Source: Escherichia coli
Lineage (GTDB): Bacteria > Pseudomonadota > Gammaproteobacteria > Enterobacterales > Enterobacteriaceae
Length of the DNA: 64,000 nt
Strand: one strand, 5' to 3'
NCBI RefSeq assembly: GCF_003018235.1
Contig: NZ_CP027437.1
Position 1 is the first letter of the stretch, and each line of letters opens with the position of its first letter. Shown one piece after another: positions 4,282-50,679 of the stretch. The notes beneath the pieces were generated by a model. It searched no databases, was not told the DNA's origin, and was given only the letters and a program-made list of their open reading frames with translations. The position numbers were made by a program, and so were the translations under genes.

Positions 4282-5151
4282 TTATTTCAGAACAGTTTTC
4301 AGTGCTTCACCGATATCCGCCAGGCTGCGAACGGTTTTCACGCCTGCGGCTTCCAGAGCAGCGAATTTCTCATCCGCAGTCCCTTTACCACCGGCAATGA
4401 TGGCACCCGCGTGGCCCATACGTTTGCCTTTCGGCGCAGTCACACCAGCGATGTAACCCACAACAGGCTTGGTAACGTGCTCTTTGATGTACGCAGCCGC
4501 TTCTTCTTCAGCGCTACCGCCGATCTCACCGATCATCACGATCGCTTCGGTCTGCGGATCTTTTTCGAACATTTCGAGGATGTCGATAAAGTTAGAGCCA
4601 GGGATCGGGTCGCCGCCGATACCGACACAGGTCGACTGACCGAAACCGTAATCCGTGGTCTGTTTAACCGCTTCATAGGTCAGTGTACCGGAACGGGAAA
4701 CGATACCCACTTTACCCGGTTTGTGAATGTGACCAGGCTGGATACCGATTTTGCATTCACCCGGAGTGATAACGCCTGGGCAGTTCGGGCCGATCATACG
4801 AACGCCAGCTTCGTCCAGTTTCACTTTCACAGTCAGCATATCCAGCGTCGGGATGCCTTCAGTGATGGTGATAATCAGTTTGATGCCTGCATCAATAGCT
4901 TCCAGAATGGAGTCTTTGCAGAACGGTGCTGGTACGTAGATAACAGAAGCGGTAGCGCCAGTAGCAGCAACAGCTTCACGCACGGTGTTGAACACCGGCA
5001 GGCCGAGGTGGGTGGTGCCGCCTTTACCTGGGGTTACGCCGCCAACCATTTTAGTGCCGTATGCAATGGCCTGTTCTGAGTGGAAAGTCCCCTGGCTACC
5101 GGTAAAGCCCTGGCAGATAACCTTGGTGTTTTTATCAATTAAAATGGACAT
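4282..5151 (-). CDS. sucD: Succinyl-CoA synthetase alpha subunit
   Basis: 289-aa ORF, recognised from memory as SucD ([24 protein letters not shown]…). Confidence 0.97.
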
Positions 5152-6317
5152 TATTTCCCCTCCACTGCGGCAACAACCTGCTGAGCTGCATCCGTCAGAC
5201 CTTTTGCTGCAATAATATTCAGGCCGCTGTCAGCCAGTTTCTTCGCGCCGAGTTCGGCGTTGTTACCTTCCAGACGTACCACGACCGGTACGTTAACACC
5301 CACTTCCGCTACCGCGCCGATGATACCGTCAGCGATCAGGTCGCAACGAACGATACCGCCGAAGATGTTAACCAGAACGGCTTTCACTTTGTCGTCAGAG
5401 AGGATGATTTTGAACGCTTCGGTTACACGTTCTTTGGTTGCGCCGCCGCCAACGTCAAGGAAGTTAGCTGGTTCGCCGCCGTGCAGTTTAACGATGTCCA
5501 TCGTACCCATCGCCAGACCTGCGCCGTTAACCATACAACCGATGTTACCGTCCAGCGCAACGTAGTTCAGTTCCCACTGTGCAGCCTGTGCTTCACGTGG
5601 ATCTTCCTGCGACTGGTCACGCATTTCGCGCAGATCAGGCTGGCGGAACAGTGCGTTGCCATCAGCGCCCAGTTTGCCGTCGAGGCAAATCAGATCGCCC
5701 TGTTTGGTGATGACCAGCGGGTTGATTTCGATCAGCGCCAGGTCGCGCTCCAGGAAAATGGTCGCCAGGCCCATGAAGATTTTGGTGAACTGCTGAACCA
5801 GTTTACCTTCCAGACCCAGTTTGAACGCCAGCTCGCGTCCCTGATACGGCATCGGGCCAGTCAGCGGATCAAGCGCAACTTTGTGGATCAGGTGCGGAGT
5901 TTCTTCCGCCACTTTTTCGATTTCCACGCCGCCTTCGGTGGAGGCCATAAAGACCACACGACGGGAACTACGGTCAACAACGGCACCGAGATACAGCTCT
6001 TTAGCGATATCGGTCGCTGCTTCAACCAGAATCTGGTTAACCGGTTGGCCATTGGCATCTGTTTGATACGTTACCAGACGCTTGCCCAGCCAGTTTTCTG
6101 CAAAAGCACGGATGTCTTCTTTGCTGTTTACAACTTTCACACCGCCCGCTTTACCGCGGCCACCAGCGTGAACCTGACATTTCACTACCCACGGACCGGC
6201 ACCGATTTTTGAAGCGGCTTCTTCTGCTTCGCGCGGAGTAGTACAGGCATAACCCACCGGTGCTGGTAAGCCATAGCGGGCAAAAAGTTGTTTTGCCTGA
6301 TATTCATGTAAGTTCAT
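5151..6317 (-). CDS. sucC: Succinyl-CoA synthetase beta subunit
   Basis: 388-aa ORF ([18 protein letters not shown]…); ATGA overlap with sucD. Confidence 0.97.
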
Positions 6318-43124: not shown

Positions 43125-45801
43125 CGAACCCTTACGTCCCGACCCCGATCGTCTGCTGGAACAAACTGCCGCGCCGCATCGGGGGAAGCTGAAAGTTTTC
43201 TTCGGTGCCTGCGCAGGCGTCGGGAAGACCTGGGCGATGCTGGCAGAAGCCCAGCGACTGCGGGCGCAAGGGCTGGATATTGTGGTTGGCGTGGTAGAAA
43301 CCCACGGGCGGAAAGATACCGCCGCAATGCTGGAAGGGCTGGCTGTTCTGCCGTTAAAACGCCAGGCGTACCGTGGGCGGCACATCAGCGAGTTTGATCT
43401 CGATGCCGCCCTCGCCCGCCGTCCGGCACTGATCTTAATGGACGAACTGGCGCACAGTAATGCGCCAGGTTCTCGTCATCCTAAACGCTGGCAGGACATC
43501 GAAGAGCTGCTGGAAGCTGGCATTGATGTTTTCACAACCGTCAACGTTCAGCATCTGGAAAGTCTGAATGATGTGGTCAGCGGCGTCACCGGAATTCAGG
43601 TACGGGAAACCGTGCCCGATCCTTTTTTCGATGCCGCCGACGACGTGGTGCTGGTGGACTTGCCCCCGGACGATCTGCGTCAACGGCTGAAAGAAGGTAA
43701 AGTCTATATTGCCGGGCAGGCGGAACGCGCCATTGAACATTTTTTTCGCAAAGGCAATCTGATCGCCCTGCGCGAACTGGCACTGCGCCGTACTGCCGAT
43801 CGCGTAGATGAGCAAATGCGCGCCTGGCGGGGGCATCCTGGCGAAGAGAAAGTCTGGCACACGCGCGACGCGATCCTTTTATGCATCGGGCATAACACCG
43901 GCAGCGAAAAACTGGTCCGCGCGGCGGCGCGGCTGGCGTCACGGCTGGGTAGCGTCTGGCACGCGGTGTATGTTGAAACCCCTGCCCTGCATCGCTTACC
44001 GGAGAAAAAACGTCGGGCAATTCTCAGCGCCTTACGTCTGGCGCAGGAGCTGGGCGCAGAGACGGCAACACTTTCTGATCCAGCGGAAGAGAAAGCGGTA
44101 GTGCGTTATGCCCGTGAACATAATCTTGGCAAGATTATTCTCGGTCGCCCGGCCTCGCGCCGCTGGTGGCGTCGGGAAACGTTTGCTGACCGACTGGCGC
44201 GCATCGCCCCCGATCTCGATCAGGTGCTGGTCGCGCTTGATGAACCACCCGCCCGCACGATAAACAACGCGCCGGATAGCCGCTCTTTTAAAGACAAGTG
44301 GCGGGTACAGATTCAGGGATGCGTGGTTGCCGCCGCGTTATGCGCCGTTATCACCTTAATTGCCATGCAGTGGCTGATGGCGTTTGATGCCGCCAACCTG
44401 GTGATGCTGTATCTACTTGGCGTGGTGGTGGTGGCGCTATTTTATGGGCGCTGGCCTTCGGTGGTTGCTACCGTCATTAATGTGGTGAGTTTCGATCTCT
44501 TTTTTATCGCCCCACGCGGCACGCTCGCCGTCTCTGATGTGCAATATCTGCTGACCTTCGCGGTGATGTTAACCGTCGGGCTGGTGATCGGGAACCTTAC
44601 TGCTGGCGTTCGTTATCAGGCGCGGGTAGCCCGTTACCGCGAGCAACGCACACGGCACTTATATGAAATGTCGAAAGCTCTGGCGGTGGGCCGCAGTCCG
44701 CAGGACATCGCCGCCACCAGCGAACAATTTATTGCCTCCACGTTTCATGCCCGCAGTCAGGTGTTGTTGCCCGATGACAACGGTAAATTGCAGCCGTTAA
44801 CACATCCGCAAGGAATGACGCCGTGGGACGATGCCATCGCGCAGTGGAGTTTTGATAAAGGCCTGCCTGCGGGCGCGGGCACCGACACGTTACCCGGTGT
44901 ACCGTACCAGATTTTGCCGCTAAAAAGCGGCGAGAAAACCTACGGGCTGGTGGTGGTGGAACCGGGGAATCTGCGCCAGTTGATGATCCCGGAACAGCAA
45001 CGCCTGCTGGAGACGTTTACGCTGTTAGTCGCCAATGCCCTTGAGCGGCTGACACTGACCGCCAGCGAAGAACAGGCGCGGATGGCAAGCGAACGAGAAC
45101 AGATCCGCAACGCCCTGCTGGCGGCGCTTTCGCATGATTTACGCACGCCGCTTACGGTGCTGTTCGGTCAGGCAGAAATCTTAACGCTCGATCTGGCGAG
45201 CGAAGGATCGCCCCACGCCCGCCAGGCCAGCGAGATTCGTCAGCATGTGCTGAACACGACCCGACTGGTGAATAATCTACTGGATATGGCGCGAATTCAG
45301 TCCGGCGGCTTTAATTTGAAGAAAGAGTGGTTAACGCTGGAAGAAGTGGTCGGCAGCGCGCTGCAAATGCTGGAACCGGGTTTATCGTCGCCCATCAATC
45401 TTTCTCTGCCAGAACCGCTGACCTTAATCCACGTTGACGGGCCACTCTTTGAACGGGTGCTGATTAATCTGCTGGAGAACGCGGTGAAATACGCGGGTGC
45501 GCAGGCCGAAATTGGTATCGATGCCCACGTTGAGGGCGAAAATCTACAACTGGATGTCTGGGATAATGGCCCCGGTCTTCCGCCAGGCCAGGAGCAGACG
45601 ATATTTGATAAGTTTGCTCGCGGGAATAAAGAGTCGGCGGTACCGGGTGTAGGGCTTGGGCTGGCAATTTGTCGGGCGATTGTGGATGTACACGGCGGCA
45701 CCATTACCGCGTTCAACCGACCGGAAGGTGGTGCCTGTTTTCGTGTTACACTTCCCCAGCAAACTGCCCCTGAACTTGAAGAATTTCATGAGGATATGTG
45801 A
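43117..45801 (+). CDS. kdpD: Sensor histidine kinase KdpD
   Basis: Start at the ATG giving [41 protein letters not shown] (894 aa); 8-nt overlap with kdpC. Confidence 0.95.
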
Positions 45802-46475
45802 CAAACGTTCTGATTGTTGAAGATGAACAGGCTATTCGTCGCTTTCTGCGCACGGCGCTGGAGGGCGATAGGATGCGCGTCTTTGAGGCCGAAACGCTGC
45901 AACGCGGCTTGCTGGAAGCGGCTACCCGTAAGCCAGATTTGATTATTCTCGATCTCGGCCTGCCCGATGGTGATGGGATTGAGTTTATCCGCGACCTGCG
46001 CCAGTGGAGCGCAGTGCCGGTGATTGTGCTTTCCGCACGTAGCGAAGAGAGCGACAAAATCGCCGCGCTGGATGCCGGAGCGGATGATTATCTGAGTAAG
46101 CCGTTTGGCATTGGCGAATTGCAGGCCCGTCTGCGCGTCGCATTACGCCGCCACTCTGCCACCACCACGCCCGATCCGCTGGTGAAATTTTCCAATGTTA
46201 CCGTCGATTTAGCGGCTCGAGTGATCCATCGCGGTGAGGAAGAGGTGCATCTCACCCCGATTGAGTTCCGCCTGCTGGCGGTGTTGCTTAATAATGCGGG
46301 AAAAGTGCTCACCCAGCGCCAGCTCCTTAACCAGGTGTGGGGGCCAAACGCGGTCGAACACAGTCATTATTTGCGTATTTATATGGGGCATCTGCGACAA
46401 AAACTGGAACAGGATCCCGCCCGCCCACGCCATTTCATTACTGAAACCGGTATTGGGTATCGGTTTATGCTTTGA
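45798..46475 (+). CDS. kdpE: Response regulator KdpE (OmpR family)
   Basis: 225-aa ORF ([37 protein letters not shown]…). Confidence 0.95.
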   Translation: MTNVLIVEDEQAIRRFLRTALEGDRMRVFEAETLQRGLLEAATRKPDLIILDLGLPDGDGIEFIRDLRQWSAVPVIVLSARSEESDKIAALDAGADDYLSKPFGIGELQARLRVALRRHSATTTPDPLVKFSNVTVDLAARVIHRGEEEVHLTPIEFRLLAVLLNNAGKVLTQRQLLNQVWGPNAVEHSHYLRIYMGHLRQKLEQDPARPRHFITETGIGYRFML

Positions 46476-46749
46476 ATTGTTATTCAATAAATTCGCTTTA
46501 ATAGTGATTAATTTATTATTAAACCTGCTCCAAATATTATTATTTGGCAGGTTTAATTTCTTAACGCAAATATAAAACACGAAATTACAACATTTAAGTA
46601 ACAAAACAGCATCTAATATAGCAATATTCATAATTAATGATTTATTATCTGGGGTATGATCGTTTTTTTTTGATCTTCTTCACAGATTATAGCCATTTCA
46701 TGGATAGAATAACTCTACCTTCAACTGACACAGCAAGAGGTAAAGGTAA

Positions 46750-46854
46750 ATGGAAAATAATAACCGCTTAATGCCTCATATAAGGCGGACAACCCATATC
46801 ATGAAGTTTGCCCATCGTAATAGTTTTGACTTTCATTTCTTTAATGCCCGCTAG
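46750..46854 (+). CDS. speFL: speF leader / ornithine-sensing ribosome-arrest peptide
   Basis: 34-codon ORF MENNNRLMPHIRRTTHIMKFAHRNSFDFHFFNAR, ~310 nt upstream of speF. Not in the ORF track (below its length cutoff). The HIRRTTHIMKFAHRNSFDFHFFNAR portion matches SpeFL as I recall it. Confidence 0.75.
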   Translation: MENNNRLMPHIRRTTHIMKFAHRNSFDFHFFNAR

Positions 46855-47164
46855 TCTTCTGACTAAAGGGCACCCCAACGTACAGGTCTCCCTGACTTTA
46901 AGCATTACAGGTTAATACCTGTATCCTTCGGTGCTCATATACTGCTAACCCTTTTAAACTCTAAATAATTCGAGTCGCAGCACTTGCAACTTGAGGTATG
47001 ACGAGTATAGCCAGTTACCGGGCTGGTCTGGGTTATTGCATCTACAAAAAGCAAACTACTGATTTATTTATCAGCGGTGGGGTTTTGCTTTTTTTCCGGC
47101 GTGATCGATTTCTCCTTTGAGAAATTGAGGACCTGCTATTACCTGAAATAAAGAGATGAACAAA

Positions 47165-49363
47165 ATGTCAGAATTAAAAATTGCCGTTAGTCGTTCTTGC
47201 CCGGATTGTTTTTCAACTCATCGCACATGCGTGAATATTGACGAAAGTAATTATATTGACGTTGCCGCCATTATTTTATCGGTCAATGATGTGGAACGTG
47301 GAAAACTCGATGAAATAGACGCTACTGGCTATGGCATTCCTGTTTTTATTGCAACGGAAAATGAAGAACGTGTACCCGCAGAATATCTGCCACGTATTTC
47401 TGGTGTCTTCGAACATTGCGAATCACGTAAAGAGTTTTATGGACGTCAGTTAGAAACCGCTGCAAGCCATTATGAAACGCAACTGCGCCCGCCCTTCTTC
47501 CGCGCACTGGTCGATTATGTTAATCAGGGCAATAGTGCTTTTGACTGCCCTGGTCATCAGGGGGGTGAGTTTTTCCGTCGCCATCCGGCAGGCAATCAGT
47601 TCGTGGAATACTTTGGTGAGGCGCTGTTCCGTGCTGACTTGTGCAACGCCGACGTAGCGATGGGCGATCTGCTGATTCACGAAGGCGCGCCATGCATTGC
47701 ACAGCAACATGCGGCTAAAGTCTTTAATGCCGATAAAACCTATTTCGTTTTAAACGGTACTTCATCTTCTAATAAAGTGGTCTTAAACGCATTGCTGACG
47801 CCGGGCGATCTGGTGTTGTTTGACCGCAATAACCATAAATCTAACCACCACGGTGCGTTGCTACAGGCTGGCGCGACACCGGTTTATCTGGAAACCGCAC
47901 GTAACCCGTATGGTTTTATCGGTGGTATTGACGCTCACTGTTTTGAAGAAAGTTACCTGCGTGAGCTGATTATAGAAGTTGCACCGCAGCGGGCAAAAGA
48001 GGCTCGTCCTTTCCGCCTCGCCGTTATTCAGCTAGGCACTTACGACGGTACGATTTATAACGCCCGTCAGGTGGTGGATAAAATTGGTCATCTGTGTGAC
48101 TACATCCTCTTTGACTCCGCATGGGTCGGCTATGAGCAGTTTATCCCGATGATGGCGGACTGTTCACCACTGTTGCTGGATCTTAATGAGAACGATCCGG
48201 GTATTCTGGTTACGCAATCCGTACATAAACAGCAGGCTGGTTTTTCTCAAACTTCACAAATCCATAAAAAAGACAGCCACATCAAAGGGCAACAGCGTTA
48301 TGTACCGCACAAACGCATGAACAACGCCTTTATGATGCACGCCTCCACCAGCCCGTTCTATCCGCTGTTTGCCGCACTGGATATCAACGCCAAAATGCAT
48401 GAAGGTGTCAGCGGTCGTAATATGTGGATGGATTGTGTGGTAAATGGCATTAATGCCCGCAAACTGATCCTCGATAACTGTCAGCATATTCGTCCGTTCG
48501 TACCTGAACTGGTGGATGGTAAACCCTGGCAGTCGTATGAAACAGCGCAAATTGCGGTTGATCTGCGCTTCTTCCAGTTTGTACCAGGGGAACACTGGCA
48601 TTCTTTTGAAGGCTATGCAGAGAATCAATACTTTGTTGATCCGTGCAAACTGTTGCTGACAACCCCAGGTATTGATGCACGTAACGGCGAATATGAAGCG
48701 TTCGGTGTACCCGCGACGATTCTTGCTAATTTCCTGCGCGAAAATGGCGTAGTGCCGGAAAAATGCGATCTTAACTCCATCCTCTTCCTGCTGACTCCAG
48801 CAGAAGATATGGCCAAACTTCAGCAACTTGTTGCCCTGCTGGTACGCTTCGAAAAACTGCTGGAATCTGATGCGCCGCTGGCGGAAGTGCTACCTTCCAT
48901 CTACAAACAGCATGAAGAGCGCTACGCCGGTTATACGCTTCGTCAGTTGTGCCAGGAAATGCATGATTTGTATGCCCGCCACAACGTGAAACAACTGCAA
49001 AAAGAGATGTTCCGTAAGGAACACTTCCCACGCGTCAGCATGAATCCGCAAGAAGCTAACTACGCCTATTTACGCGGTGAAGTGGAGCTGGTTCGTCTGC
49101 CGGATGCAGAAGGCCGTATCGCTGCCGAAGGTGCGCTTCCTTATCCTCCGGGTGTGCTGTGTGTTGTTCCGGGTGAAATCTGGGGTGGTGCTGTTTTGCG
49201 TTACTTCAGCGCTCTGGAAGAAGGGATCAACCTGCTGCCAGGTTTTGCACCGGAGCTGCAGGGTGTCTATATCGAAGAACATGATGGTCGTAAGCAAGTT
49301 TGGTGCTATGTCATCAAGCCTCGTGATGCGCAAAGCACCCTGTTGAAAGGGGAAAAATTATGA
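47165..49363 (+). CDS. speF: Inducible ornithine decarboxylase
   Basis: Start at the ATG giving MSELKIAVS… (732 aa). Confidence 0.95.
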   Translation: MSELKIAVSRSCPDCFSTHRTCVNIDESNYIDVAAIILSVNDVERGKLDEIDATGYGIPVFIATENEERVPAEYLPRISGVFEHCESRKEFYGRQLETAASHYETQLRPPFFRALVDYVNQGNSAFDCPGHQGGEFFRRHPAGNQFVEYFGEALFRADLCNADVAMGDLLIHEGAPCIAQQHAAKVFNADKTYFVLNGTSSSNKVVLNALLTPGDLVLFDRNNHKSNHHGALLQAGATPVYLETARNPYGFIGGIDAHCFEESYLRELIIEVAPQRAKEARPFRLAVIQLGTYDGTIYNARQVVDKIGHLCDYILFDSAWVGYEQFIPMMADCSPLLLDLNENDPGILVTQSVHKQQAGFSQTSQIHKKDSHIKGQQRYVPHKRMNNAFMMHASTSPFYPLFAALDINAKMHEGVSGRNMWMDCVVNGINARKLILDNCQHIRPFVPELVDGKPWQSYETAQIAVDLRFFQFVPGEHWHSFEGYAENQYFVDPCKLLLTTPGIDARNGEYEAFGVPATILANFLRENGVVPEKCDLNSILFLLTPAEDMAKLQQLVALLVRFEKLLESDAPLAEVLPSIYKQHEERYAGYTLRQLCQEMHDLYARHNVKQLQKEMFRKEHFPRVSMNPQEANYAYLRGEVELVRLPDAEGRIAAEGALPYPPGVLCVVPGEIWGGAVLRYFSALEEGINLLPGFAPELQGVYIEEHDGRKQVWCYVIKPRDAQSTLLKGEKL

Positions 49364-50679
49364 GTCAGGCTAAATCGAACAAAATGGGCGTCGTTCAGTT
49401 AACCATACTGACGATGGTCAACATGATGGGCTCCGGTATCATCATGCTGCCGACAAAGCTTGCCGAAGTTGGGACAATTTCAATTATCTCCTGGCTGGTG
49501 ACAGCCGTAGGCTCAATGGCACTGGCATGGGCATTCGCAAAATGCGGTATGTTCAGCCGTAAATCAGGCGGTATGGGCGGTTATGCGGAGTATGCTTTCG
49601 GTAAATCCGGGAACTTTATGGCGAACTATACCTACGGCGTCTCACTGCTAATTGCTAACGTCGCGATTGCTATTTCGGCGGTTGGTTACGGCACCGAACT
49701 GCTCGGCGCGAGTTTGTCGCCAGTGCAGATTGGTCTTGCGACCATCGGGGTGCTGTGGATTTGTACCGTGGCTAACTTTGGTGGTGCGCGCATTACCGGG
49801 CAAATCAGTAGCATTACCGTGTGGGGGGTCATTATTCCGGTGGTAGGCCTGTGCGTTATCGGCTGGTTCTGGTTTAGCCCGACGCTTTACGTTGATTCCT
49901 GGAATCCGCATCATGCACCGTTCTTCAGTGCGGTAGGTTCTTCCATCGCTATGACGCTGTGGGCTTTTCTTGGTCTGGAGTCTGCGTGTGCGAATACTGA
50001 TGTAGTGGAAAACCCGGAACGTAATGTGCCAATCGCGGTACTCGGCGGTACGTTAGGTGCGGCGGTGATTTATATCGTCTCCACCAACGTGATTGCAGGG
50101 ATTGTGCCTAATATGGAGCTGGCAAATTCAACGGCACCATTTGGCCTGGCCTTCGCACAGATGTTCACGCCAGAAGTGGGTAAAGTCATTATGGCGCTGA
50201 TGGTGATGTCCTGCTGCGGTTCGCTGCTTGGCTGGCAGTTCACCATTGCCCAGGTGTTTAAATCTTCATCTGATGAAGGCTACTTCCCTAAAATTTTCTC
50301 CCGTGTAACCAAAGTGGATGCACCGGTGCAGGGAATGTTGACCATTGTGATTATCCAGAGCGGGTTGGCGCTGATGACGATTAGCCCGTCGCTAAACAGT
50401 CAGTTCAACGTGCTGGTTAACCTAGCCGTGGTGACCAATATCATTCCGTATATTCTGTCAATGGCGGCATTAGTCATTATTCAGAAGGTCGCTAATGTGC
50501 CCCCCTCAAAAGCGAAAGTTGCAAACTTTGTTGCTTTTGTTGGCGCGATGTACAGCTTTTATGCGCTGTACTCATCCGGGGAAGAAGCCATGCTATACGG
50601 TTCCATCGTGACCTTCCTCGGTTGGACACTGTATGGTCTGGTCTCACCACGCTTTGAACTGAAAAATAAACACGGTTAA
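49360..50679 (+). CDS. potE: Putrescine/ornithine antiporter
   Basis: 439-aa ORF; 4-nt overlap with the speF stop. Confidence 0.95.
   Translation: MSQAKSNKMGVVQLTILTMVNMMGSGIIMLPTKLAEVGTISIISWLVTAVGSMALAWAFAKCGMFSRKSGGMGGYAEYAFGKSGNFMANYTYGVSLLIANVAIAISAVGYGTELLGASLSPVQIGLATIGVLWICTVANFGGARITGQISSITVWGVIIPVVGLCVIGWFWFSPTLYVDSWNPHHAPFFSAVGSSIAMTLWAFLGLESACANTDVVENPERNVPIAVLGGTLGAAVIYIVSTNVIAGIVPNMELANSTAPFGLAFAQMFTPEVGKVIMALMVMSCCGSLLGWQFTIAQVFKSSSDEGYFPKIFSRVTKVDAPVQGMLTIVIIQSGLALMTISPSLNSQFNVLVNLAVVTNIIPYILSMAALVIIQKVANVPPSKAKVANFVAFVGAMYSFYALYSSGEEAMLYGSIVTFLGWTLYGLVSPRFELKNKHG

What the first reader, a model, noticed from the sequence alone, without database searches (positions are those of the whole stretch)
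46750..46854. speFL arrest-peptide ORF present in the speF leader
A 34-codon ORF (MENNNRLMPHIRRTTHIMKFAHRNSFDFHFFNAR) lies in the long speF leader. It is below the ORF-track length cutoff, and its HIRRTTHIMKFAHRNSFDFHFFNAR portion corresponds to the ornithine-sensing ribosome-arrest peptide that controls speF-potE as I recall it. The N-terminal residues may differ slightly from my memory of the K-12 peptide.
Basis: partly seen in the sequence, partly recalled or inferred. Interest (0 to 1): 0.3.

Follow-up and report, generated by a model that had tools for sequence, protein, structure and literature searches.

The report
speFL leader peptide upstream of speF
The 34-codon ORF is the already known and annotated SpeFL leader peptide, the ornithine-sensing ribosome-arrest peptide that switches on the speF-potE operon, here in the commoner non-K-12 E. 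coli version; it is an ordinary, correctly identified feature.

Summary
Window 46750-46854 (+) reads MENNNRLMPHIRRTTHIMKFAHRNSFDFHFFNAR followed by TAG. It lies between kdpE and speF-potE.

It is SpeFL:
- 32/34 residues match the SpeFL chain solved on the ribosome (PDB 6TBV/6TC3, E=1.7e-18).
- It scores above Pfam's cut-off for PF10940 'SpeFL'.
- RefSeq annotates the identical peptide as 'leader peptide SpeFL'.
- Every residue the literature reports as needed for ornithine capture or arrest is present: P9, HIRRxxH at 10-16, F26/F28/F30/F31, and AGG-CGG at codons 12-13.

The only differences from K-12 are N5 and L7. These are the family's most variable positions among residues 1-13. Against K-12, 11 of the 13 differing codons are synonymous (dN/dS 0.03), so the peptide sequence itself is under selection.

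The same ORF sits upstream of speF-potE in dozens of genera. A hairpin containing the stop codon is conserved with compensatory changes. The 3' end of speFL can pair with the speF ribosome-binding site, as was shown experimentally in Salmonella.

Verdict: already known, low interest.

Side observations: E. coli carries two deeply diverged speF-leader haplotypes, the window type in about 62% of genomes and the K-12 type in about 31%. The window type contains an internally deleted ERIC repeat between speFL and speF.

The parts
46705..46710 (+). Candidate -10 hexamer TAGAAT of the speFL-speF-potE promoter (inferred). It would place the transcription start about 32 nt before the speFL ATG.
   Evidence: GGATA(A/G)AAT is almost invariant in 12 genera. 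The spacing matches the mapped Salmonella start site, where orf34 begins at +32 (PMC6386406). The simple sigma-70 scan found no full + strand promoter, so this part remains inferred.
46735..46740 (+). Shine-Dalgarno-like AAGAGG of speFL, 9 nt before the ATG
   Evidence: Read directly from the sequence. An AAAGG motif is conserved at this position in other genera.
46750..46854 (+). speFL: 34 codons plus TAG, encoding MENNNRLMPHIRRTTHIMKFAHRNSFDFHFFNAR
46777..46797 (+). Codons 10-16, the HIRRTTH ornithine-recognition motif. Codons 12-13 are AGG CGG (46783-46788), preceded by ATA.
   Evidence: Codon list. The motif and the role of the rare Arg codons come from 10.1101/604074 and PMC6386406. H10, I11, R12, R13 and H16 are invariant in 40/40 peptides from other species.
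46845..46872 (+). Hairpin that contains the speFL stop codon (UAG at 46852-54 lies in the inner stem). This is the RNA-polymerase pause hairpin of the published model.
   Evidence: Local fold of -33 kcal/mol, z=-4.4. It is present in 24 of 25 Enterobacteriaceae leaders. 91% of cells are paired against 19-38% when the partners are slid, and 4 pairs show changes on both sides.
46759..46996 (+). C-rich, G-poor stretch (C/G 1.4-1.8 in 78-nt windows) covering the 3' two-thirds of speFL and the next ~140 nt. It is the candidate rut / Rho-loading zone.
   Evidence: Composition. The overlap of rut with speFL and Rho-dependent termination about 20 nt past the stop codon are taken, not tested here.
46880..46935 (+). 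Two further conserved hairpins downstream of the stop codon: ACAGG..CCTG, and TACAGG-loop-CCTGTA. The loop of the second is where Salmonella, Citrobacter and Kluyvera carry a full ERIC.
46955..47008 (+). Internally deleted ERIC/IRU repeat ('mini-ERIC'): the left ~24 nt and right ~30 nt termini joined together. It is absent from the K-12 leader and shared with E. albertii.
   Evidence: The full 127-nt element is a dispersed repeat, with a median of 11 places per E. coli genome. The weak Rfam isrH hit at 46953-47009 coincides with this segment and is most likely caused by it (not checked against the isrH model).
47044..47127 (+). Conserved distal leader structures: an A-tract/U-tract stem enclosing CTGA-TTTATTTA-TCAG (47059-47074), and the hairpin CGATTTCTC-CTTT-GAGAAATTG (47106-47127).
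   Evidence: Predicted. The sequence blocks are nearly invariant in 27 species.
46821..46843 (+). 5' arm of the long-range helix, formed by speFL codons 24-32
   Evidence: The MFE fold of the whole leader pairs it with 47149-47176. 79% of cells are paired across 27 species against 37-51% when slid, with little covariation. The homologous helix was verified by compensatory mutations in Salmonella.
47149..47176 (+). 3' arm of the long-range helix. It covers the speF Shine-Dalgarno AAAGAG (47150-55) and the start codon ATG (47165-67).
47165..49363 (+). speF, inducible ornithine decarboxylase. The mechanical ORF starts at the in-frame ATG 47156; RefSeq and the K-12 alignment support 47165.
49360..50679 (+). 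potE, putrescine-ornithine antiporter

Best explanation
The ORF is speFL, the cis-acting leader peptide of the speFL-speF-potE transcript.

Mechanism (from K-12 and Salmonella experiments, inferred for this allele): transcription starts about 32 nt upstream of the ORF. RNA polymerase pauses at the hairpin that contains the speFL stop codon.

- Low ornithine: the ribosome terminates at UAG and leaves. The C-rich rut region that overlaps and follows speFL is exposed, and Rho terminates transcription just past the hairpin. The 3' end of speFL also stays paired with the speF Shine-Dalgarno and AUG.
- High ornithine: one L-ornithine is trapped between 23S rRNA and the N-terminal sensor hairpin (P9, R12, R13 of HIRRxxH). 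The C-terminal effector domain (the Phe core F20/F26/F28/F30/F31 and N32) compacts and blocks release factor action, with Arg34-tRNA in the P site. The stalled ribosome and the ribosomes queued behind it mask rut and hold the inhibitory helix open, so speF and potE are transcribed and translated.

The slow AGG-CGG codons at 12-13 tune ribosome spacing. In Salmonella they also link expression to arginine supply.

Shown here: the ORF, its identity, purifying selection on the peptide, conservation of every critical residue and codon, the conserved stop-codon hairpin, the C>G composition, and the pairing potential with the speF RBS. Inferred: ornithine binding, stalling and Rho dependence.
For: Identity:
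- PDB SpeFL 6TBV/6TC3, 32/34 identical, E=1.7e-18.
- Pfam PF10940 SpeFL at 27.9 bits, above the 25-bit cut-off.
- RefSeq 'leader peptide SpeFL' WP_001312672.1 has the identical sequence.
- K-12 b4803 differs only at residues 5 and 7.

Context: kdpE, then the leader, then speF-potE.

Selection: 11 synonymous against 2 non-synonymous codon differences from K-12, dN/dS 0.028.

Family conservation:
- An ORF with HIRRxxH lies upstream of speF in 51 of 80 loci found through SpeF alone.
- By tblastn, 56 loci have both potE downstream and a SpeFL-like ORF upstream.
- 14 loci with ample upstream sequence have neither potE downstream nor a SpeFL-like ORF upstream.
- M1-N4, H10-R13, H16, M18, R23, F26 and F28 are invariant in 40/40 peptides. 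Positions 5 and 7 are variable, and N5 and L7 are the commonest states.

Functional requirements quoted from 10.1101/604074 and PMC6386406 are all present in the window.

RNA:
- The stop-codon hairpin has compensatory changes.
- C/G is 1.4-1.8 over 46759-46996.
- The whole-leader fold has z=-4.3 and reproduces the speFL-3' x speF-RBS helix.
Against: - No experiment exists for this allele. All toeprinting, cryo-EM and reporter work used the K-12 or Salmonella leaders.
- This leader differs from K-12 by about 15-24% and carries a 51-nt ERIC remnant.
- NCBIfam has no model that hits the peptide.
- The simple sigma-70 scan finds no complete + strand promoter.
- The long-range helix shows pairing potential but almost no covariation, because both arms are constrained for other reasons.
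- Deletion of residues 1-7 abolishes arrest in K-12, so an effect of N5/L7 on sensitivity cannot be strictly excluded. These are, however, the commonest residues in the family.
Confidence: 0.93

Rival explanations
1. The ORF works mainly as a translation-rate (arginine-supply) sensor rather than an ornithine sensor. Ribosome speed over the AGG-CGG pair decides which of two leader conformations forms. One is RNase G-sensitive with the speF RBS sequestered; the other is stable and translatable. This is the Ben-Zvi 2019 model for Salmonella orf34. It is better seen as an additional layer on top of ornithine sensing than as a true alternative.
For: The abstract and sections of PMC6386406 describe it. 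The AGG-CGG pair, the 'downstream of stop' hairpins and the speFL-3' x speF-RBS helix are all present in the window.
Against: The same paper and 10.1101/604074 show induction by ornithine. The cryo-EM structure shows R12/R13 contacting ornithine directly, so the Arg residues, not only their codons, are required. The Salmonella 'ring' (nt 175-449) contains a full ERIC that this leader lacks. RNase G sites mapped there may therefore not transfer to this allele.
Confidence: 0.4
2. In this haplotype the mini-ERIC and the diverged promoter, leader and speF 5' end change the regulation relative to K-12. Possible changes are a different basal level, ornithine threshold or mRNA stability. On this reading the element is SpeFL, but the switch does not behave like the published one.
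For: A 51-nt ERIC remnant forms its own hairpin (-15 kcal/mol, z=-3.0) between the Rho-termination zone and the RBS-proximal structures. The leader is only about 76-85% identical to K-12, while the flanking genes are 96-98% identical. ERICs co-transcribed with genes alter mRNA stability in Yersinia (review PMC2229807).
Against: All elements assigned a function are conserved: the peptide, the stop-codon hairpin, the C-rich zone, the distal hairpins and the RBS helix. Leaders in other genera tolerate a full 127-nt ERIC, and the Salmonella one is still ornithine-regulated.
Confidence: 0.15
3. It is a chance ORF in an AT-rich spacer, not translated. The conserved feature would then be only the RNA.
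For: Many short ORFs of similar length occur mechanically in the same spacer.
Against: dN/dS is 0.028 while dS is saturated. The peptide is conserved across families of bacteria while third codon positions vary freely. A frameshifted template abolishes stalling, and AUG-to-AAA abolishes orf34-lacZ translation, in the published work.
Confidence: 0.01

Closest known systems
E. coli K-12 SpeFL (b4803; PDB 6TBV, 6TC3; Herrero del Valle et al., bioRxiv 10.1101/604074)
   Same: 34 aa, with 32/34 identical residues. Same position between kdpE and speF. It has HIRRTTH at 10-16, P9, the AGG-CGG codons, F20/F26/F28/F30/F31, N32 and the A33-R34-UAG ending. The stop-codon hairpin and the distal leader hairpins are also shared.
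   Different: N5 and L7 replace S5 and T7. There are 11 synonymous codon differences. The speFL-speF spacer is 310 nt instead of 257 nt because of a 51-nt ERIC remnant. The promoter-proximal spacer is largely unalignable upstream of about -90.
Salmonella orf34 (Ben-Zvi et al. 2019, PMC6386406)
   Same: Same leader ORF; S. diarizonae has MENNNRFMPHIRRTTHIMMF... Also shared are Rho-dependent termination just after the stop-codon hairpin and pairing of the ORF's 3' end with the speF RBS.
   Different: The Salmonella spacer is about 380 nt and has a full-length ERIC-like insert in the loop of the TACAGG/CCTGTA hairpin. The window has a deleted ERIC at a different site about 45 nt further downstream. 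Residue 19 is K here and M in Salmonella.
TnaC (tryptophan-sensing arrest peptide of tnaCAB)
   Same: It has the same logic: a leader peptide plus a free amino acid blocks release at its stop codon, the stalled ribosome masks a rut site, and Rho termination is prevented. This comparison is drawn in 10.1101/604074.
   Different: There is no sequence relationship. The ligand and the binding site in the exit tunnel are different. Not tested here.
ERIC / IRU repeats (Sharples & Lloyd 1990; Hulton et al. 1991; reviewed in PMC2229807), for the 46955-47008 segment only
   Same: Both termini align with full 127-nt copies. The segment has TA at its ends, folds as a hairpin, lies in a transcribed intergenic region, and belongs to a family dispersed through E. 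coli genomes.
   Different: It is only about 54 nt long. The central ~72 nt, including the ERIC-PCR primer region, are missing.

Membership tests
SpeFL / orf34 leader peptide | Short ORF (34 codons in Enterobacteriaceae) on the same strand, immediately upstream of speF-potE | tested here: met
   The ORF is at 46750-46854. speF starts at 47165 and potE at 49360. NCBIfam identifies both genes.
SpeFL / orf34 leader peptide | Significant sequence similarity to characterised SpeFL | tested here: met
   PDB 6TBV/6TC3 SpeFL, E=1.7e-18, 32/34 identical. Pfam PF10940 scores 27.9 bits against a gathering score of 25. NCBIfam has no hit for the peptide.
SpeFL / orf34 leader peptide | HIRRxxH ornithine-recognition loop at residues 10-16, with P9, R12 and R13 lining the pocket | tested here: met
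   The window has P9-H10-I11-R12-R13-T14-T15-H16. The requirement is stated. These positions are invariant in 40/40 peptides from other species, except P9 (31 P, 9 A).
SpeFL / orf34 leader peptide | N-terminal residues 1-7 present, since the sensor hairpin is needed for arrest | tested here: met
   MENNNRL is present. Positions 1-4 are invariant. Positions 5 and 7 are variable in the family, and the window carries the commonest states. The effect of N5/L7 on sensitivity is untested.
SpeFL / orf34 leader peptide | C-terminal effector domain: a Phe core (F20, F26, F28, F30, F31) and N32, with the ORF ending right after residue 34 | tested here: met
   All are present, and TAG follows R34.
SpeFL / orf34 leader peptide | Consecutive rare Arg codons at positions 12 and 13 | tested here: met
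   AGG CGG at 46783-46788, preceded by ATA.
SpeFL / orf34 leader peptide | Hairpin including the 3' end / stop codon of the ORF (RNAP pause site) | tested here: met
   The hairpin is at 46845-46872. 91% of cells are paired in 25 leaders, 4 pairs have changes on both sides, and slid controls give 19-38%.
SpeFL / orf34 leader peptide | rut site overlapping the ORF, and Rho-dependent termination downstream of it | not testable with these tools
   Only composition could be checked: C/G is 1.4-1.8 over 46759-46996, which is compatible with a rut site. Rho dependence is known from bicyclomycin experiments in K-12 and Salmonella.
SpeFL / orf34 leader peptide | Pairing of the ORF's 3' part with the speF ribosome-binding site | tested here: inconclusive
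   The MFE fold pairs 46821-46843 with 47149-47176. 79% of cells are paired against 37-51% when slid, but only 1 pair changes on both sides and the shuffles are not exceeded. The helix is experimentally supported only in Salmonella.
SpeFL / orf34 leader peptide | Ornithine-dependent ribosome stalling at codon 33/34 and induction of speF | not testable with these tools
   Requires toeprinting or reporter assays. It has been shown for the K-12 allele.
ERIC / IRU repeat (segment 46955-47008) | About 127-bp imperfect palindrome with conserved termini, TA at the ends, dispersed in enterobacterial intergenic regions | tested here: inconclusive
   The termini align with full copies and the segment folds as a hairpin. 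The full-length relative is dispersed, with a median of 11 places per E. coli genome. The central ~72 nt are missing, so this is a deletion derivative and not a canonical member.

The most novel reading that the evidence does not exclude
The speF regulatory region is a deep, balanced dimorphism in E. coli. The window type, which carries a mini-ERIC and resembles E. albertii, is found in about 62% of complete genomes. The K-12 type, on which all mechanistic work was done, is found in about 31%. The two are as different as alleles from different genera (speFL dS about 1.5; the first 200 nt of speF are 76% identical), while the flanks are 96-98% identical. The novel reading is that the two leaders set different ornithine, arginine or acid thresholds for putrescine production, and that the polymorphism is maintained by selection or recurrent recombination and not by drift.
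Probability: 0.12. Interest if true: 0.4.

Novelty: already known. Interest (0 to 1): 0.1.

Why it matters
SpeFL is a textbook case of a ribosome and nascent chain sensing a metabolite. Recognising it here only confirms that the window carries a normal, intact speFL-speF-potE acid- and ornithine-inducible operon. The modest added value is this: the version in the window is the majority E. coli allele, not the K-12 allele used in the structural and genetic studies, and every functionally assigned residue and RNA element is conserved in it. The published mechanism can therefore reasonably be transferred to it.

Tried and rejected
I replaced it with a genome-contig scan using SpeF, followed by a motif and tblastn search of the upstream DNA.
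- NCBIfam has no model matching the peptide.
- Rfam has no family for the enterobacterial speF leader. The only hit was a sub-threshold isrH match (17 bits against a gathering score of 45). It coincides with the ERIC remnant, which is its most likely cause (not checked against the isrH model).
- The consensus promoter scan found no + strand sigma-70 site. The proposed -10 therefore rests only on conservation and on the Salmonella start-site spacing.
- The covariation test of the long-range speFL x RBS helix was uninformative, because both arms are constrained by coding and by the SD.
- The overlapping 44-aa ORF 46637-46771, which RefSeq calls 'hypothetical protein' in some genomes, was considered and set aside. 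It has no Pfam hit. It starts upstream of the inferred transcription start. K-12 annotates no such gene.
- One hit that covered only 16% of the leader turned out to be a strain with an IS1-associated deletion of speF-potE. It is not a third allele.

Full report
**Observation**

Window 46750-46854 on the + strand translates to MENNNRLMPHIRRTTHIMKFAHRNSFDFHFFNAR followed by TAG. The mechanical ORF list shows it as a 34-aa ATG ORF. An AAGAGG Shine-Dalgarno lies 9 nt upstream.

The ORF sits in the 689-nt spacer between kdpE (45798-46475) and speF (annotated start 47165), with potE following at 49360. NCBIfam identifies all three genes far above their cut-offs. A 34-codon ORF in this AT-rich spacer is not unusual by length alone, since about ten ORFs of at least 20 aa occur there. 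The case rests on its sequence.

**Identity**

- The window is E. coli. A 99.6%-identical locus in strain CFSAN061763 carries the same ORF, annotated 'speFL: leader peptide SpeFL' (WP_001312672.1). Its translation is identical to the window peptide.
- K-12 MG1655 speFL (b4803) translates to MENNSRTMPHIRRTTHIMKFAHRNSFDFHFFNAR. The window differs only at N5 (S in K-12) and L7 (T in K-12).
- The peptide matches the SpeFL chain of the stalled-ribosome structures 6TBV/6TC3 over all 34 residues (E=1.7e-18).
- It exceeds Pfam's gathering score for PF10940 'Leader peptide SpeFL' (27.9 against 25 bits).

**Selection on the peptide**

Thirteen codons differ between the window and K-12 alleles, and eleven of those differences are synonymous. 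Nei-Gojobori estimates are dS about 1.46 (saturated), dN 0.041 and dN/dS 0.028. The binomial probability of such an excess of synonymous changes is about 3e-7. The amino-acid sequence is therefore what is conserved, which excludes a chance or purely RNA-level feature.

**Conservation elsewhere**

I scanned one genome per GTDB species for SpeF homologues without using the leader. I then searched the upstream DNA.

- An ORF with H-[ILVM]-R-R-x-x-H lies 200-500 nt upstream of speF in 51 of 80 loci. These include Escherichia, Citrobacter, Salmonella, Klebsiella-group genera, Enterobacter, Hafnia, Edwardsiella, Morganella, Serratia, Yersinia, Plesiomonas, Vibrio and Shewanella.
- tblastn adds divergent versions in Sutterella and relatives (…IRRIRHIMCF.CRSCFS…) and a Yersinia proxima variant with HIQR.
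- In total, 56 loci have both potE downstream and a SpeFL-like ORF upstream. Fourteen loci with ample upstream sequence have neither (Pseudomonas, and second copies in Yersinia and Serratia).
- In 40 peptides of the 34-aa MENN type, positions 1-4, 10-13, 16, 18, 23, 26 and 28 are invariant. Position 5 is N (33) or S (7). Position 7 is the most variable of all, with L the commonest state. The window's two differences from K-12 thus fall on tolerant positions and carry the commonest residues.

**Comparison with the published functional requirements**

Herrero del Valle et al. (bioRxiv 10.1101/604074) report the following:
- ornithine-dependent, puromycin-resistant stalling with codon 33/34 in the P site;
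- a sensor domain (residues 1-13) whose HIRRxxH loop, together with P9, R12 and R13 and the 23S rRNA, binds one L-ornithine;
- loss of arrest on mutating H10, I11, R12, R13 or H16, or on deleting residues 1-7;
- an effector domain (residues 14-34) with a Phe core (F20, F26, F28, F30, F31) and N32 displacing U2585, so that release factor cannot act;
- rare Arg codons at 12-13 that limit polysome build-up on an overlapping rut site.

Ben-Zvi et al. (PMC6386406) show in Salmonella:
- the ORF begins at +32 of the transcript;
- without its complete translation, Rho terminates about 157 nt from the start, roughly 20 nt after the stop codon;
- nt 99-125 of the ORF pair with the speF RBS, verified by compensatory mutations;
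- the Arg codons couple expression to arginine through RNase G.

Every one of these sequence features is present in the window: P9, HIRRTTH, ATA-AGG-CGG at 46780-46788, F20/F26/F28/F30/F31, N32 and A33-R34-TAG.

**RNA elements in the window**

- *Stop-codon hairpin.* 46845-46872 folds as UGCCC-GC-UAGUC-UUCU-GACUA-AA-GGGCA, with the UAG in the inner stem. The hairpin recurs in 24 of 25 Enterobacteriaceae leaders. On the alignment, 91% of cells are paired against 19-38% when the partners are slid, and four pairs change on both sides.
- *Candidate rut zone.* From 46759 to 46996, C exceeds G by 1.4-1.8-fold. This is compatible with a rut site. Rho dependence itself cannot be tested here.
- *Long-range helix.* The whole leader folds more stably than shuffles (z=-4.3). 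It reproduces a helix between speFL codons 24-32 (46821-46843) and the speF SD and AUG (47149-47176). Pairing potential is conserved (79% against 37-51% slid), but there is essentially no covariation. The comparative evidence is therefore inconclusive, and the helix rests on the Salmonella experiment.
- *Promoter.* A nearly invariant GGATA(A/G)AAT (-10 candidate TAGAAT, 46705-46710) would place the start about 32 nt before the ATG, as in Salmonella. The simple sigma-70 scan found no full promoter.

**Conclusion on the finding**

The element is already known, structurally characterised and routinely annotated. What cannot be shown with these tools is ornithine-dependent stalling and Rho dependence for this particular allele.

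**Side observation 1: two deeply diverged leader haplotypes**

The window's leader matches 3,351 of 5,426 complete E. coli genomes by megablast. The K-12 leader matches 1,709. The two sets together cover 93% of genomes.

Identity between the window and K-12, segment by segment:

| Segment | Identity |
|---|---|
| kdpD | 98.3% |
| kdpE | 96.5% |
| kdpE-speFL spacer | about 76%, only partly alignable |
| speFL | 85.7% |
| speFL-speF spacer | 77-85% |
| speF | 93.5% |
| potE | 98.0% |

Within speF, divergence is concentrated in the first 400 nt, with 76% identity in the first 200 nt. The window type is nearer to E. albertii. The K-12 type is not close to any sampled species.

**Side observation 2: an ERIC remnant in the leader**

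The 51 nt that the window and E. albertii have, and K-12 lacks, are the two termini of an ERIC/IRU repeat joined together (46955-47008). The segment folds as its own hairpin.

Salmonella diarizonae, a Citrobacter and two Kluyvera species carry a full ERIC of about 127 nt at a different site in the same leader, in the loop of the TACAGG/CCTGTA hairpin. That element is a dispersed repeat, with a median of 11 places per E. coli genome. Its properties are reviewed in PMC2229807.

The speF leader has thus been hit independently by this mobile repeat. Whether that alters regulation is open. I give it a low probability, because all elements with an assigned function are intact.

Noticed in passing
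window 46476-47600 (kdpE-speF spacer and speF 5' end), compared with L003 (K-12): E. coli has two deeply diverged haplotypes of the speF regulatory region. The window type is in 3,351 of 5,426 complete genomes and the K-12 type in 1,709. Identity falls from 96-98% in kdpD, kdpE and potE to about 76-86% in the leader, speFL and the first 200-400 nt of speF (speFL dS about 1.5). The window type is closer to E. albertii.
   Followed up: partly
window 46955-47008: An internally deleted ERIC/IRU repeat (both termini present, about 72 nt of the core missing) lies inside the transcribed speF leader. It is shared with E. albertii and absent from K-12. It forms a hairpin of -15 kcal/mol. The sub-threshold Rfam isrH hit coincides with it and is most likely caused by it.
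   Followed up: yes
L007:2180-2310, L005:2178-2305, L013:2170-2295, L018:2214-2340: Full-length ERIC elements of about 127 nt are inserted in the loop of the second downstream hairpin of the speF leader in Salmonella diarizonae, Citrobacter sp. On2M and two Kluyvera species. This is an independent insertion at a different site from the E. coli one. The Salmonella 'ring-like structure' studied by Ben-Zvi et al. appears to include this repeat, and the paper does not mention ERIC (0 occurrences).
   Followed up: partly
window 46637-46771 (+): A 44-aa ORF overlaps the speFL start. RefSeq annotates it as 'hypothetical protein' WP_001299172.1 in window-type genomes. It has no Pfam hit, starts upstream of the inferred transcription start, and is not annotated in K-12. 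It is probably a spurious gene call.
   Followed up: partly
L003 (K-12) 2722-2871, i.e. downstream of potE; window kdpE 46332-46475: In K-12 the pseudogene ybfI, just after potE, is a 144-nt copy (91% identical) of the 3' end of kdpE. It is followed by ybfG and ybfP, which the window lacks; in the window pgm follows potE directly. This suggests an old rearrangement or cassette-like exchange of the kdpE-speF-potE segment in the K-12-type haplotype.
   Followed up: no
L002 (strain LAM_HS) 5113-5900: In one laboratory strain, speFL-speF-potE is missing. An IS1A element sits 112 nt after kdpE, indicating an IS1-associated deletion of the operon.
   Followed up: no
L055, L060, L061, L068, L069, L073, L080 (Sutterella/Burkholderiaceae MAGs) and L037 (Yersinia proxima): Divergent SpeFL-like leader ORFs (…[IL]RR[IT]RHIMCF.CRSCFS…) lie upstream of speF in beta-proteobacterial gut Sutterella, outside the gamma-proteobacteria named in the original paper. 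A Yersinia proxima copy has HIQR instead of the strictly required HIRR.
   Followed up: no
window 46657-46685: Upstream of the candidate -10 there are strongly conserved motifs: TGATC, then N8-9, then TTGATC, then N3-4, then TTCACAG. They are invariant or nearly so in 12 genera. They could be the binding site of the unknown activator of the acid-inducible speF promoter.
   Followed up: no
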